DNA of 64,000 nt from Candidatus Thorarchaeota archaeon (GCA_963726195.1 CAVSBO010000004.1:256001-320000), one strand, 5' to 3'. Positions 8,650 through 37,977 are shown, counted from the stretch's first letter. A program made the numbers and translations. The notes: generated from the letters alone by a model not told the origin.

Positions 8650-10836
8650 TTACACGTACCCTGTCAGCGCTTCGGCTTTCTGTGGTTGACGTCTGAGAAT
8701 CACCTCAGCTATCTCCTGGAAGCGTTTCAGGTCGTCAGGACTAATGCTTGGTCGTACCTCGTGTAGGGCCTCGTCGAAATGCTTCATTTCGACGGGCTTG
8801 ACTTTCCAGTTGTTCCTGACTGCGGCCATTGCTGCCTCTCTGCACAGACCTTCTATGTCAGCTCCGGAGAATCCGTCTGTGAGGTCTGCCAATCGCTCAA
8901 GGTTCACGTCCTTAGCTAGGGGCATTTTCCTAGTGTGGACCTTGAGGATTTCTAGCCGAGCGGCTCTGTCGGGTGGCGGCACGAAGAGAACGGCGTCAAA
9001 CCTTCCCGGCCTCAGGACAGCGGGGTCAAGCATATCAGCACGGTTAGTGGCGCCGATAACCAACACGTTCTGCAGGGTCTGCATTCCGTCCACCTCTGCT
9101 AGGAACTGGTTAACGATTCTCTGGCTCACGCCCGAGTCATCTCGAGACCCTCTTGCGCTGAGAATCGCGTCAATCTCATCGAAGAACAGTATGCATGGTG
9201 CTACCTGCCGGGCTTTCTTGAAAATCTCGCGAACCGCCTTCTCTGATTCACCTACATACTTGTTGAAGAACTCAGGCCCCTTGACAGCGATGAAGTTCGC
9301 CTCACTCTCTGTTGCCACAGCCTTGGCAAGCAGTGTCTTCCCTGTGCCCGGGGGTCCAAAGAGCATTATGCCCTTGGGAGTTCTGATTCCCATGCCACTG
9401 AAGACCTCAGGGTGTTTGAGTGGCGCCTCGACGGCCTCCCTGAGCTGAGCCTTCACCTTTTCCAAGCCGCCGATGTCGTCCCATCGTACATTCGGCTTTT
9501 CGACCATTACTTCTCTAAGCGCGGATGGTGATACCTCGGTAAGAGCCGTCTCAAAGTCCGCTTGCGTCACAAAGAGACTGTTCAGAACATCAGGAGGAAT
9601 GTCTCCAGTCTCGGGATCAACATGCGGGAGTGCTCTACGCAGAGCCTGCATGGCTGCTTCTCGTGCTAGTGCTGCGAGATCGGCCCCCACGAATCCGTGA
9701 GTAATTGCTGCGAGCTTCTCAAGGTCGAGACCCTGTTCAAGAGGCATAGCCCTTGTATGTATTTGAAGAATCTCAAGGCGACCTTTCTTGTCAGGGACTC
9801 CTAGCACTATTTCTCTGTCAAACCTGCCGGGCCTTCTGAGAGCAGGATCTAAGTCGTCTGGCCGATTGGTCGCACCGATTACTATGACCTGACCACGGGT
9901 CTGTAGACCATCCATTAGTGCCAAGAGCTGAGCCACGACCCTTCTTTCTACTTCCCCTGTCACTTCTGCTCGCTTGGGCGCAATGCTGTCAATCTCATCG
10001 ATGAAGATGATGCTCGGAGCATTCTTTTCTGCGTCGTCAAAGACCTCTCTTAGCTTCTGCTCGGACTCACCATAGAACTTGGACATTATCTCAGGTCCGT
10101 TTATGGTCTTGAACGTCGCTCCTGATTCGTTGGCAACTGCTTTTGCTATCAATGTCTTTCCGGTACCTGGAGGTCCTGTAAGCAATACACCCTTTGGAGG
10201 TGCAATTCCCAAGCGCTTGAACAGCTCGGGTGACTTCATGGGCAGTTCAATCATTTCGCGTATCTTCTGCAGCTCTTTTCCTAAGCCGCCAATATCCTCG
10301 TACGTGACCTGAGGAATGGACACCTCTTCGGGAGCAGCTGGTCCTGTCCGGACTTCGACCTTTGTCTCAGGTGTTACGCGAGCATGCTTGGCCGGAGCGA
10401 CGGTCGTGACTGTGAATTGAAGGCCTTGGCCGATGGATGCAACTAGCAAAGCATCTCCTCTTGTAACGGGCTTGTTGATGATTTGCTGCTTAATGTACTC
10501 CTCAAATCCAGGCTGAAATCTCACAGGCTGGCTTGGAGCCAAGACGATTCGCGATGCTTCGGAGAGGGTTATGGCCGAGACCTCAACCACATCGCCTAGC
10601 TTCACCCCGGCATTGCTTCTGATGAGGCCGTCCATTCTTATCATATCAAGAATCTCATCTTCTTTGAGTGCGGGCCAGCAAACGGCAACGGTTTCCTTGC
10701 TGGCTTTGAGAAGAACGTAGTCACCAGATCTGACTCCGAGTTGATTCCTCACATCACTGTTCAGTCTGACAATGCCTCGGCCTTGATCCCTCGGCATGGC
10801 CGCGGCAACCTTTAAGCTCACTGACTCTCCCGGCAT
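8650..10836 (-). CDS. cdc48: Cdc48/p97/VAT family double AAA+ ATPase
   Basis: N-domain (DQGRGIVRL), two GPPGTGKT Walker A motifs, FIDEID/FFDEID Walker B, ALRRPGRFD/AVLRPGRFD, C-terminal GYV. Confidence 0.97.
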   Translation of the reverse strand: MPGESVSLKVAAAMPRDQGRGIVRLNSDVRNQLGVRSGDYVLLKASKETVAVCWPALKEDEILDMIRMDGLIRSNAGVKLGDVVEVSAITLSEASRIVLAPSQPVRFQPGFEEYIKQQIINKPVTRGDALLVASIGQGLQFTVTTVAPAKHARVTPETKVEVRTGPAAPEEVSIPQVTYEDIGGLGKELQKIREMIELPMKSPELFKRLGIAPPKGVLLTGPPGTGKTLIAKAVANESGATFKTINGPEIMSKFYGESEQKLREVFDDAEKNAPSIIFIDEIDSIAPKRAEVTGEVERRVVAQLLALMDGLQTRGQVIVIGATNRPDDLDPALRRPGRFDREIVLGVPDKKGRLEILQIHTRAMPLEQGLDLEKLAAITHGFVGADLAALAREAAMQALRRALPHVDPETGDIPPDVLNSLFVTQADFETALTEVSPSALREVMVEKPNVRWDDIGGLEKVKAQLREAVEAPLKHPEVFSGMGIRTPKGIMLFGPPGTGKTLLAKAVATESEANFIAVKGPEFFNKYVGESEKAVREIFKKARQVAPCILFFDEIDAILSARGSRDDSGVSQRIVNQFLAEVDGMQTLQNVLVIGATNRADMLDPAVLRPGRFDAVLFVPPPDRAARLEILKVHTRKMPLAKDVNLERLADLTDGFSGADIEGLCREAAMAAVRNNWKVKPVEMKHFDEALHEVRPSISPDDLKRFQEIAEVILRRQPQKAEALTGYV

Positions 10837-35786: not shown

Positions 35787-36347
35787 CTAGCGGCTCGCCT
35801 CAACCACAATGCGGTAGTAATAGACCTTGCCTGCAGTGGGGCTGTCACGTTCCACACGGATGACCTGCCCCGCTTTGGCACCAAGCACTTTGGCAGCCGG
35901 GTCGTCCCTCAGGATTCTCGGAAGCTGTGGTTTCTTGATGCCATAGTGTTCGAGCACCATGTGGACCTCACTATCGCTCACGATGATGTGCTTGGGAACA
36001 AGCTCATGCTGAAACAAGTCGAACGAAGAATAAGTACCCTCGACCAGTTCTACCTTGGACGCCCGTGCGAACTTCCTTGCAGCGGGAGTGAAACGAGAGC
36101 CTCCCACCAGAACTCCTTCGAGGGCTTGGGCTTCTTCCATGTCCCGGGCGATGTCCTTCACTATTGCGACGCCGACAACTTTCGCTTCCTTGAATATCCA
36201 GACGACTGACTTGGTGACCGCTTCGCCTGTCTCCTTCACAGGGAGCATGACGTATCGGTCTTCGTATTCAAAGAGTTCGTCGACCTTGTAACCACGAAGT
36301 GTAAGCAAACCTCTGGTCTTAATCACTGATGCTGGAAGGTCTACCAT
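35787..36347 (-). CDS. rpo5: RNA polymerase subunit Rpo5/RPB5 with eukaryote-type N-terminal domain
   Basis: C-terminal HELVPKH, QLPRILRDDP, GQVIRVERDSPTAG..YYR; N-terminal LRGY, KVVGV, FTPAA. Confidence 0.92.
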   Translation of the reverse strand: MVDLPASVIKTRGLLTLRGYKVDELFEYEDRYVMLPVKETGEAVTKSVVWIFKEAKVVGVAIVKDIARDMEEAQALEGVLVGGSRFTPAARKFARASKVELVEGTYSSFDLFQHELVPKHIIVSDSEVHMVLEHYGIKKPQLPRILRDDPAAKVLGAKAGQVIRVERDSPTAGKVYYYRIVVEASR

Positions 36348-36562
36348 GGACGAAGCACCCGGGCGCAAAGCTCCGCGCTGTTGCAGCACATATAAACGTT
36401 GTCAAGTGTGTTGTTAGTGCCATACGAGTTCTTGAGCGGTTTCGTAATGCAAGACCAATGGAATGGTGTCACTGGCCATTGCCTTGTCGGATATTTGTCC
36501 GAATATGGTTCATTTATCAATGCTTAAACGATGGCTACCCCGGAACATGAAAACCCACCAAG

Positions 36563-37551: not shown

Positions 37552-37977
37552 GTGCCGGGACTTACTAAGGGGATAATTGCCGACGTGAAGAATAGGCCCT
37601 ACGTCAATCTCCCGCAGGGCTTCTTTTCAAACCCTGCCGTCAGTGGTATGAAGGCGGCAATGGTAATCTATTTCGAACGTTCCGGTGAGATTCGTCTAAT
37701 ACCGATGATGAAAGAGGCTGGCGCAAGGGTGAGGCTGGAAGTCGAAAAGGTGAATCCGGCCCTGATGCAAACTATGACGCATCTCTTCAAGCAGCACGAT
37801 TTGAAAGTCCTTTTCACGACAGGTTTCTGTTTCGAGCAGAACCGATGTGTTTACGAGGTTTACTTCGCCGCTGATGATATTCGCGAGAAAGAAGCAGAGA
37901 TTCGTGAGACTATCAACAGCATACCAGGTCTCTATGAGAGCGAATTCGAATTGCTTGAGATAGACGGTGAATGGTAG
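37552..37977 (+). CDS. Hypothetical protein, AbrB-like N-terminus + ACT-like C-terminus
   Basis: YVNLP...GEIRLIP, then a beta-alpha-beta-beta-alpha-beta pattern ending SIPGL. Confidence 0.5.
   Translation: MPGLTKGIIADVKNRPYVNLPQGFFSNPAVSGMKAAMVIYFERSGEIRLIPMMKEAGARVRLEVEKVNPALMQTMTHLFKQHDLKVLFTTGFCFEQNRCVYEVYFAADDIREKEAEIRETINSIPGLYESEFELLEIDGEW

What the first reader, a model, noticed from the sequence alone, without database searches (positions are those of the whole stretch)
35787..36347. Two-domain, eukaryote-like RPB5 outside the RNA polymerase operon
Seen: a ~186-aa protein with a canonical Rpo5 C-domain preceded by ~105 aa containing LRGY, KVVGV and FTPAA, matching eukaryotic RPB5 jaw-domain motifs (DRGY, KVGV, TPxA). 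No rpo2/rpo1 genes are adjacent. Known: typical archaeal Rpo5 is about 80 aa, lacks the jaw domain and heads the rpo operon. Inference: an archaeal origin of the eukaryotic jaw domain, or a second specialised subunit.
Basis: partly seen in the sequence, partly recalled or inferred. Interest (0 to 1): 0.75.

Follow-up and report, generated by a model that had tools for sequence, protein, structure and literature searches.

The report
Archaeal Rpo5 with Rpb5-type jaw domain
This Thorarchaeota (Asgard archaeon) genome's only gene for the small RNA polymerase subunit Rpo5/RpoH carries an extra N-terminal domain, a catalytically dead Mrr-type nuclease fold that aligns with the 'jaw' half of eukaryotic Rpb5, which the papers I could read call eukaryote-only, so this part of our polymerases probably arose in archaea.

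Summary
Window 35787-36347 (minus strand) encodes a 186-aa protein. Its C-terminal half is a canonical RpoH/Rpb5_C domain, preceded by a well-folded domain of about 106 aa (pLDDT 94). It is the only Rpb5_C gene in this 88.9%-complete genome, and rpoB is on another contig.

The N-domain hits Pfam Mrr_cat, not Rpb5_N. The three nuclease catalytic positions are replaced, so it is a dead nuclease fold.

Profile-profile tests show the archaeal domain bridges the two:
- versus Mrr_cat: 99.4%
- versus eukaryotic jaw: 95.1%, with LRGY/DRGY, KVVGV/KVGI and FTPAA/MTPSA in register
- jaw versus Mrr_cat directly: 33.5%

The N-only profile hits only Rpb5 chains in the PDB.

Among sampled Asgard families, 14 of 21 have the two-domain form, including Heimdallarchaeaceae, Jordarchaeales and Borrarchaeum. 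Two Bathyarchaeota-named clusters have it too. Short forms (Odin, Baldr and four others) stay upstream of rpoB (5/5 checked); long forms lie away from it (5/5, plus this genome).

Best reading: one ancient fusion gave archaea an Rpb5-like lower jaw that eukaryotes inherited. An independent fusion is not excluded. This scan has noted the same architecture on other DNA (at least 46 genomes). I found no paper describing it.

The parts
35787..36347 (-). rpo5/rpoH gene: 186 codons plus the stop at 35787-35789. It is the sole Rpb5_C-bearing gene of the genome.
36030..36347 (-). N-terminal domain, residues 1-106. It is a catalytically dead Mrr-type PD-(D/E)XK fold (helix 6-17; strands 25-58; helix 60-72; strand 77-86; helix 88-96; strand 99-103). 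It is homologous to the eukaryotic Rpb5 jaw.
   Evidence: Sequence: Pfam Mrr_cat E 3.2e-7, 30.9 bits against GA 21. hhalign to eukaryotic jaw 95.1% and to Mrr_cat 99.4%. Catalytic positions are replaced. Structure: AF2 pLDDT 93.6. VIA-align Z 10.2 to AF1548 and Z 8.7 to Arabidopsis Rpb5.
36000..36029 (-). Inter-domain linker, residues 107-116. It is predicted disordered in the free subunit.
   Evidence: pLDDT below 50 for residues 107-116.
35805..36023 (-). C-terminal RpoH/Rpb5_C assembly domain, residues 109-181.
   Evidence: PF01191 E 6.5e-28. NF007129 equivalog. Foldseek TM 0.82-0.88 and rmsd 1.3-2.1 A to archaeal subunit H chains.
36391..36396 (-). TATA-like element TTTATA, 44-49 nt upstream of the ATG. 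This is inferred, not shown.
   Evidence: Sequence read. The element overlaps the alternative GTG start at 36389.
36356..36359 (-). GGTG, a possible ribosome-binding site 8 nt before the ATG. This is inferred.
   Evidence: Sequence read.

Best explanation
What it is: the gene encodes this Thorarchaeote's one and only Rpo5 (RpoH) subunit, in a two-domain, Rpb5-like form.

Shown:
- The C-terminal half is the canonical assembly domain.
- The N-terminal ~106 aa are a compact PD-(D/E)XK (Mrr_cat-type) fold.
- That fold has lost the Asp...(Gln/Glu)-x-Lys catalytic positions.
- It is homologous both to Mrr nucleases and to the eukaryotic Rpb5 N-terminal 'jaw' domain, and it sits in the same position relative to the C-domain.

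Inferred mechanism: the C-domain anchors the subunit on the C-terminal part of Rpo1, next to Rpo6, as in solved archaeal and eukaryotic enzymes. The dead-nuclease domain is held at the far end of the downstream DNA channel as a 'lower jaw'. There it contacts or fences downstream duplex DNA and offers an exposed docking surface for factors, as described for the eukaryotic jaw (PMC3906176).

Inferred history: an Mrr-type nuclease domain was fused once to rpoH in an archaeal ancestor, and the gene moved out of the rpoH-rpoB-rpoA operon. The fusion was kept in most Asgard families and in Bathyarchaeia. Eukaryotes inherited it, and their jaw then diverged (a ~21-residue insertion and erosion of the Mrr motifs).
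For: Identity of the gene:
- Sole Rpb5_C gene in the genome.
- Rpb5_C and the RpoH equivalog are matched.

N-domain fold:
- pLDDT 93.6.
- PD-(D/E)XK fold: Z 10.2 to AF1548, 9.6 to NucS, 8.7 to A. thaliana Rpb5 (20% identity, chain residues 4-130) and 8.2 to ASFV Rpb5.
- Rpb5 chains have the highest Foldseek TM-scores, 0.60-0.67.
- The whole model's top 34 PDB hits are eukaryotic-type Rpb5 chains (eukaryotic, plus ASFV) aligned over ~200 columns.

Sequence link to the eukaryotic jaw:
- The full-length profile aligns collinearly through the junction into the jaw (profile 40-181 against human 65-209).
- With the N-only profile, all 10 PDB hits at E<=10 are Rpb5 chains.
- hhalign: archaeal N vs metazoan jaw 95.1%, P 3.4e-8. 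Archaeal N vs Mrr_cat 99.4%, P 5e-22. Jaw vs Mrr_cat 33.5%. Reversed controls <=1.9%.
- The global alignment has 110 columns at 91.5% with the RGY, VGV and TPxA motifs in register.

Dead nuclease: the Mrr GxD Asp aligns to V/S/A at position 33, the Q of QxK to W50 (209/239), and the K to I/L/F/V at position 52. 62 of 66 members also hit the 'inactive REase' model.

Distribution:
- The N-domain was confirmed in 13 further Asgard families, including Heimdallarchaeum aukensis/Heimdallarchaeaceae, Jordarchaeales and Borrarchaeum.
- Two clusters carry Bathyarchaeota names.
- Short forms are upstream of rpoB in 5/5 genomes. Long forms are away from rpoB in 5/5, plus this genome.
Against: - Pfam's RNA_pol_Rpb5_N model does not hit this protein. 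Only 4 of 66 diverse members touch it, all below its cutoff.
- In a search of 1.84 billion representatives with the N-only profile, the non-Rpo5 hits were Mrr_cat nucleases (36-56 bits). No eukaryotic Rpb5 reached E 1e-3.
- The best structural match is an Mrr_cat protein, not Rpb5, although the Z-scores are within ~1.5 of each other.
- The PDB E-values for the N-only profile are marginal (0.025 at best).
- My eukaryotic profile is metazoa-only (Neff 1.26), and confidence is low over the first third of the alignment.
- Long-form C-domains are no closer to eukaryotic C-domains than short-form ones (65.6 vs 63.1 bits).
- The patchy long/short distribution needs several losses, transfers or re-fusions.
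- The position of the N-domain on the polymerase, and any DNA contact, are inferred from eukaryotic structures. They are not shown here.
Confidence: 0.72

Rival explanations
1. Independent (convergent) fusion. An Mrr-type nuclease domain was fused to rpoH in archaea, and separately a PD-(D/E)XK domain was fused to Rpb5 on the eukaryotic stem. The shared motifs would then be only the common heritage of the Mrr fold.
For: - The archaeal N-domain is much closer to Mrr_cat than to the jaw (hhalign P 5e-22 vs 3.4e-8; 36-56 bits vs ~18 bits in HMMER).
- The top structural hit is AF1548.
- The three 'jaw motifs' are general Mrr motifs.
- Long-form C-domains show no special affinity to eukaryotes.
Against: - It needs the same domain family fused at the same end of the same small subunit, with a collinear junction, in eukaryotes and in their closest archaeal relatives, including Heimdallarchaeaceae.
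- The jaw scores better against the archaeal N-domain than against Mrr_cat itself (95.1% vs 33.5%).
- The N-only profile finds Rpb5 chains in the PDB but not the Mrr-type structures held there (AF1548, MspJI).
- Both lineages have lost the catalytic positions.
Confidence: 0.2
2. The N-domain is a working Mrr-type nuclease tethered to the polymerase, for example for defence or for cleaving DNA or RNA ahead of the enzyme.
For: The Mrr_cat model is matched above its gathering score in all 66 members scanned.
Against: - All three catalytic positions are replaced by non-catalytic residues across 239 sequences.
- The 'inactive REase' model is hit by 62 of 66 members.
- The gene is the single, conserved housekeeping rpo5 in a conserved non-defence neighbourhood.
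Confidence: 0.03
3. It is a second, specialised Rpo5 paralogue, or a gene-call artefact that joins two ORFs, and the true short rpoH lies elsewhere.
For: The genome is only 88.9% complete. Some other Thorarchaeota genera carry two tandem long copies.
Against: - There is one Rpb5_C match in this genome, and one in most of the 194 Asgard genomes with a match.
- None of the long-form genomes listed has an additional short copy.
- The 186-aa single frame is conserved in hundreds of clusters from independent assemblies.
- Synteny is conserved in 52-61 of 66 Thorarchaeota loci.
Confidence: 0.03

Closest known systems
Eukaryotic Rpb5 / RPABC1 / POLR2E, the shared subunit of Pol I, II and III (Pfam PF03871 + PF01191; PDB 1dzf, 1i50_E, 7eu0_E, 5iy6_E)
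   Same: - Two-domain order: a PD-(D/E)XK-fold N-domain followed by the Rpb5_C assembly domain.
- Collinear junction.
- N-domain homology by hhalign (95.1%), with RGY, VGV and TPxA in register.
- Structural match: Z 8.7 with 102 aligned residues.
- No nuclease catalytic residues.
- Encoded away from the large-subunit genes.
   Different: - The N-domain is ~106 aa instead of ~140. It lacks the ~21-residue eukaryotic insertion.
- It retains clear Mrr_cat sequence character.
- It does not reach Pfam's Rpb5_N threshold.
- It serves a single archaeal polymerase.
Canonical archaeal RpoH / Rpo5 (about 80 aa; PDB 8cro_H, 4qiw_H, 7ok0_H, 2waq_H)
   Same: - The C-domain is a clear orthologue: 53-56% identity to the Thermococcales subunits, TM 0.81-0.88 and rmsd 1.3-2.1 A.
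- The NCBIfam RpoH equivalog is matched.
   Different: - It carries an extra 106-aa N-domain.
- It is not the first gene of the rpoH-rpoB-rpoA operon. The short Asgard forms (Odin, Baldr, f9, f13, f15, f24) keep that position where checked (5/5).
Mrr_cat restriction endonuclease domain (PF04471; e.g. AF1548, PDB 1y88; catalytic domains of MspJI and AspBHI)
   Same: - Same fold, and the best structural match (Z 10.2).
- The Pfam model is matched above its cutoff.
- hhalign 99.4% over 94 columns.
- Shared RGY...VGV...S-FTP-A...veL motifs.
   Different: - The catalytic Asp, Gln/Glu and Lys are all replaced.
- It is fused to an RNAP subunit rather than to DNA-recognition or other nuclease-associated modules.
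Rpo13 of Sulfolobales
   Same: According to PMC13257274, this archaea-specific subunit sits near the N-terminal part of Rpo5 and contacts double-stranded DNA. That is a different way of filling the space where the eukaryotic jaw lies.
   Different: It is an unrelated small helical protein encoded by a separate gene, and it is not a PD-(D/E)XK fold. I did not test for it here.

Membership tests
RpoH / Rpo5 / Rpb5 C-terminal (assembly) domain, PF01191 and NF007129 | Match to the curated models above their cutoffs | tested here: met
   PF01191: 96.7 bits against a cutoff of 23.5, covering model positions 1-73 of 73. NF007129 equivalog: 99.9 bits against a cutoff of 83.
RpoH / Rpo5 / Rpb5 C-terminal (assembly) domain, PF01191 and NF007129 | Fold of subunit H | tested here: met
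   Foldseek hits to archaeal H chains with TM 0.81-0.88 (normalised by target) and rmsd 1.3-2.1 A.
Canonical archaeal rpoH gene | Single-domain protein of about 80 aa, encoded directly upstream of rpoB | tested here: not met
   The protein is 186 aa with two domains. rpoB is on another contig. Short Asgard forms do meet this feature.
Eukaryotic Rpb5 N-terminal (jaw) domain, PF03871 | Match to the Pfam model above its gathering score (27 bits) | tested here: not met
   No hit for this protein at E<=1, and none in the genome. 4 of 66 diverse archaeal members hit below the cutoff, best E 1.1e-4.
Eukaryotic Rpb5 N-terminal (jaw) domain, PF03871 | Homology to the jaw by profile-profile comparison | tested here: met
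   hhalign 95.1%, P 3.4e-8. Global alignment 91.5% over 110 columns. Reversed controls 0.1%. Caveat: the eukaryotic profile is metazoa-only.
Eukaryotic Rpb5 N-terminal (jaw) domain, PF03871 | PD-(D/E)XK alpha/beta fold lying N-terminal to Rpb5_C, with a collinear junction | tested here: met
   Z 8.7 to 7eu0_E residues 4-130 and Z 8.2 to ASFV Rpb5. HMMER aligns profile 40-181 to human 65-209 as one stretch.
Eukaryotic Rpb5 N-terminal (jaw) domain, PF03871 | Position at the downstream end of the DNA channel, with contacts to DNA and factors | not testable with these tools
   This needs a structure or a multimer model of the archaeal enzyme. The single-chain model leaves the domain orientation undefined (pTM 0.58).
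Mrr_cat restriction endonuclease domain, PF04471 | Match to the Pfam model above its gathering score (21 bits) | tested here: met
   30.9 bits, residues 14-104 against model positions 16-108 of 115. 66 of 66 members match.
Mrr_cat restriction endonuclease domain, PF04471 | Catalytic D...(Q/E)xK residues | tested here: not met
   The aligned positions are V/S/A (position 33), W (position 50, 209/239) and I/L/F/V (position 52).

The most novel reading that the evidence does not exclude
The jaw domain of Rpb5, treated as a eukaryotic invention in the papers I could read, arose in archaea. A dead Mrr-type nuclease was fused to Rpo5 before the divergence of Asgard archaea, and possibly before the Asgard/TACK split given Bathyarchaeia. 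The gene left the rpo operon, and eukaryotes inherited this two-domain subunit vertically. The archaeal proteins would then be living intermediates that show where the jaw came from, and they would give a tractable archaeal system for studying its function.
Probability: 0.65. Interest if true: 0.8.

Novelty: new variant of a known kind. Interest (0 to 1): 0.7.

Why it matters
Rpb5 is shared by all three nuclear RNA polymerases. Its jaw domain contacts downstream DNA and is a target of transcription factors and of the hepatitis B X protein.

The papers I could read state that archaeal RpoH lacks this domain (PMC3906176) and list Rpb5_N as restricted to eukaryotes (PMC3424549). A conserved archaeal two-domain Rpo5, present in Heimdallarchaeaceae among others, would have three consequences:
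- It adds a component of the core transcription machine to the list of eukaryote-like features that predate eukaryotes.
- It identifies the jaw's origin as a disabled Mrr-type nuclease.
- It makes the jaw's role testable in a single-polymerase system.

It also shows that archaeal RNAPs differ in their lower-jaw architecture: short Rpo5, Rpo5 plus Rpo13, or long Rpo5.

Tried and rejected
- Single-sequence phmmer of the N-domain against the PDB gave only noise (E about 1). A profile was needed.
- The Pfam Rpb5_N model found nothing in the whole genome.
- Structure alone does not separate 'Mrr-like' from 'Rpb5-like'. AF1548, NucS and Rpb5 lie within about 1.5 Z units of each other, and Foldseek E-values favour nucleases while TM-scores favour Rpb5.
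- Scoring C-domains with a eukaryotic C-domain HMM showed no difference between long and short archaeal forms (65.6 vs 63.1 bits). That test is neutral. I did not build a tree on ~75 sites with metazoa-only eukaryotes.
- Bacterial-type promoter and terminator scans found nothing, as expected for an archaeon.
- My first hhalign script used a wrong motif pattern and returned nothing for the archaeal set. It was corrected.
I therefore could not inspect the genomic context of the Bathyarchaeota-named proteins, and that lineage assignment rests on source names only.
- Family f11 (G010) has a 246-aa open frame with Rpb5_C but no N-domain match. I did not count it as a long form.
- I considered and rejected three other readings: an active nuclease, a second paralogue and an ORF-fusion artefact (see the rival explanations).

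Full report
**1. What is there**

Window 35787-36347 on the minus strand is an open frame of 186 codons.
- Pfam places RNA_pol_Rpb5_C on residues 109-181 (E 6.5e-28). NCBIfam's RpoH equivalog is matched at 99.9 bits against a cutoff of 83.
- Residues 14-104 match Mrr_cat (PF04471; 30.9 bits against a cutoff of 21). They also match, below cutoff, the 'inactive restriction endonuclease' model NA-iREase1. The eukaryotic model RNA_pol_Rpb5_N is not matched.
- The ATG at 36347 is the likely start. Homologues begin with MVE/MVD at that point. A TTTATA element lies 44-49 nt upstream and a GGTG 8 nt upstream. The alternative GTG at 36389 overlaps the TATA-like element. The promoter reading is an inference.

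**2. It is the genome's only Rpo5 and lies away from the rpo operon**

The window's genome is 2.9 Mb in 19 contigs and 88.9% complete.
- It has one Rpb5_C match, which is this gene.
- It has no Rpb5_N match.
- Its single rpoB lies on a different contig.

The flanking genes are a CinA-like gene, a 256-aa membrane protein convergent with rpo5, an EamA transporter, a 141-aa ORF and an RHH protein. In 66 Thorarchaeota loci this neighbourhood is conserved in 52-61 loci, apart from EamA, which is present in 11. It holds no polymerase genes.

**3. The N-domain is a real, conserved, folded domain**

- Close homologues (about 185 aa, 60-95% identical) are abundant and carry Thorarchaeota names.
- More distant two-domain proteins (30-45% identical) keep the same layout and junction.
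- AlphaFold2 models the whole protein with mean pLDDT 84, with a disordered linker at 107-116. It models the N-domain alone with pLDDT 93.6 and pTM 0.85, as an alpha-beta-beta-beta-alpha-beta-alpha-beta unit.

**4. What the N-domain is related to**

*Structure.* The N-only model matches PD-(D/E)XK nucleases and Rpb5 jaws together.

| Match | VIA-align Z | Notes |
|---|---|---|
| AF1548, an Mrr_cat protein | 10.2 | best match |
| NucS | 9.6 | |
| A. thaliana Rpb5, residues 4-130 | 8.7 | 20% identity, the highest in the list |
| AspBHI | 8.2 | |
| ASFV Rpb5 | 8.2 | |

In Foldseek the lowest E-values go to EndoMS and MspJI, while the highest TM-scores (0.60-0.67) go to Rpb5 chains. The full-length model's top 34 hits are all Rpb5 chains of the eukaryotic type (eukaryotes plus ASFV), aligned over about 200 columns. 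TM is only about 0.43 because the free model's domain orientation differs. Structure therefore places all three in one fold group without separating them.

*Sequence.*
- A full-length profile aligns to eukaryotic Rpb5 chains in one collinear stretch running from the jaw into the C-domain (profile 40-181 against human 65-209).
- With a profile of the N-domain alone, all ten PDB hits at E<=10 are eukaryotic Rpb5 chains, in register (41-93 against 66-117). The E-values are marginal (0.025-0.9), and no nuclease structure appears.
- Against 1.84 billion representatives, the same profile finds other two-domain Rpo5 proteins and then genuine Mrr_cat nucleases (36-56 bits). No eukaryotic Rpb5 reaches 1e-3.

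*Profile-profile comparison.* I obtained metazoan Rpb5 sequences through the tool, using the 76-residue fragment printed. I then ran hhalign on 60 non-redundant archaeal N-domains, 14 unique metazoan jaws and 8 Mrr_cat domains.

| Comparison | Probability | P-value | Columns |
|---|---|---|---|
| Archaeal N vs jaw | 95.1% | 3.4e-8 | 52 |
| Archaeal N vs Mrr_cat | 99.4% | 5e-22 | 94 |
| Jaw vs Mrr_cat | 33.5% | 4e-4 | 36 |
| Reversed-column controls | <=1.9% | - | - |

A global alignment covers 110 columns at 91.5%. It puts LRGY/DRGY, KVVGV/KVGI and FTPAA/MTPSA in register, with one 21-residue insertion in the eukaryotic sequence. Column confidence is low in the first third.

Of 66 diverse archaeal members, all hit Rpb5_C and Mrr_cat, 62 hit NA-iREase1, and 4 hit Rpb5_N below its cutoff.

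The archaeal domain is therefore an intermediate that links Mrr nucleases to the eukaryotic jaw. Steczkiewicz et al. (PMC3424549) and SCOP already classify the jaw as a PD-(D/E)XK fold and list it as eukaryote-restricted.

**5. A dead nuclease**

In the alignment to Mrr_cat domains (239 archaeal sequences):
- The Asp of the GxD motif corresponds to position 33, which is V, S or A.
- The Gln of QxK corresponds to W50, which is W in 209 of 239.
- The Lys corresponds to position 52, which is I, L, F or V.

A catalytic role is very unlikely.

**6. Distribution**

In 201 Asgard-phylum genomes, 194 have Rpb5_C, mostly as one copy. The open frames fall into two size classes, 81-125 aa and about 180-250 aa. 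I fetched one locus per family.
- The N-domain HMM is matched (E 1e-17 to 1e-31) in 13 of 14 further long-frame families. It is matched in none of six short-frame families. With the window's own family, that makes 14 of 21 sampled families.
- Exact look-ups name some of them. Heimdallarchaeum aukensis/Heimdallarchaeaceae (221 aa), Jordarchaeales (218 aa) and Borrarchaeum (179 aa) are long. Odinarchaeum yellowstonii (79 aa) and Baldrarchaeia are short.
- Two clusters of two-domain proteins carry Bathyarchaeota names.
- Gene position tracks the form. In five short-form genomes rpoH lies directly upstream of rpoB. In five long-form genomes it lies more than 400 kb away or on another contig.
- C-domain similarity to eukaryotes does not differ between forms.

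**7. Interpretation**

Shown:
- This is a sole, conserved, two-domain Rpo5.
- Its N-domain is an inactivated Mrr-type fold.
- That domain is homologous to the Rpb5 jaw and occupies the same position.
- The form is widespread in Asgard archaea, including Heimdallarchaeaceae.

Inferred:
- The C-domain anchors the subunit on Rpo1 as in solved enzymes.
- The N-domain forms a lower jaw near downstream DNA and a docking surface, as PMC3906176 describes for the eukaryotic jaw.
- A single ancient fusion, with relocation out of the operon, was inherited by eukaryotes.

The main rival is an independent fusion of an Mrr domain. It is favoured by the much stronger Mrr affinity. It is disfavoured by four points: the same partner, end and junction; the presence of the form in the closest relatives of eukaryotes; the jaw scoring better against the archaeal domain than against Mrr_cat; and the Rpb5-only PDB hits. 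I give the rival about 0.2.

**8. Novelty**

- None of the papers I could search describes an archaeal two-domain Rpo5.
- PMC3906176 states that the N-terminal domain of Rpb5 is missing in RpoH.
- A 2026 survey of small archaeal RNAP subunits that modelled a Thorarchaeota Rpo5 does not mention it in the passages I read.
- Supplementary tables of Asgard surveys, and papers outside the library, were not checked.
- Earlier notes of this scan record the same architecture in at least 46 other genomes (Bathyarchaeia, Jordarchaeia, Thorarchaeota). They agree with my reading and gave the Bathyarchaeia lead. I treated them as leads only.

Noticed in passing
G087:C32:8313-8531 and 8954-9172; also G046, G081, G093, G134, G137, G140, G149, G152, G164, G167, G176, G182, G194 and G200; gaps of about 650 bp after rpo5 in loci such as L013, L015 and L020: Several Thorarchaeota genera (g5, g9, g12, g15) carry two tandem Rpb5_C-bearing open frames of about 190-220 aa, roughly 650 bp apart. 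These look like duplicated two-domain rpo5 genes. This window's genus has one copy.
   Followed up: partly
window 37552-37977 (+): A 141-aa ORF lies divergent from rpo5 (directly so where EamA is absent). It is present in 61 of 66 Thorarchaeota loci at 65-91% identity, which is more conserved than Rpo5 itself. It has no Pfam hit. The ESM Atlas finds only Asgard hypothetical-protein clusters, plus weak ACT-domain leads (score 0.82).
   Followed up: partly
P0135 (481 aa), P0139 (561 aa), P0170 (220 aa): Three unusual relatives turned up. P0135 has three N-domain-like repeats before one Rpb5_C. P0139 has the N-domain and Rpb5_C separated by a Cpn60/TCP-1 fragment. P0170 joins an N-like dead Mrr domain to an Smr domain. 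I did not check whether these are real architectures or assembly/gene-call artefacts.
   Followed up: no
L069 (G026:C1:1463700-1465000), cluster 1: The 221-aa Heimdallarchaeum Rpo5 shares its 90% cluster with 313-aa proteins named '2-phospho-L-lactate transferase', including records of H. aukensis and H. endolithica. The stop-to-stop frame here is only 227 aa. This is either a naming or clustering mix-up, or an overlapping gene call. It is unexplained.
   Followed up: no
G041:C5:205498-206613: In the Borrarchaeum-type genome, the open frame holding the rpoB Rpb2_6 domain is 1624 aa, against about 1115-1140 aa in the other nine Asgard genomes checked. This may be a fusion or an insertion.
   Followed up: no
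L079 (G010:C54:1300-2600), family f11: An Rpb5_C domain sits at the end of a 246-aa open frame. The protein from the first ATG (212 aa) is in the public collection. Its N-terminal part does not match the dead-Mrr domain HMM, so it may be a different extension.
   Followed up: no
L069 and L072 (Heimdallarchaeaceae and Jordarchaeales rpo5): These long forms also have about 30-40 extra residues after the Rpb5_C domain (221 and 218 aa in total), unlike the Thorarchaeota proteins.
   Followed up: no
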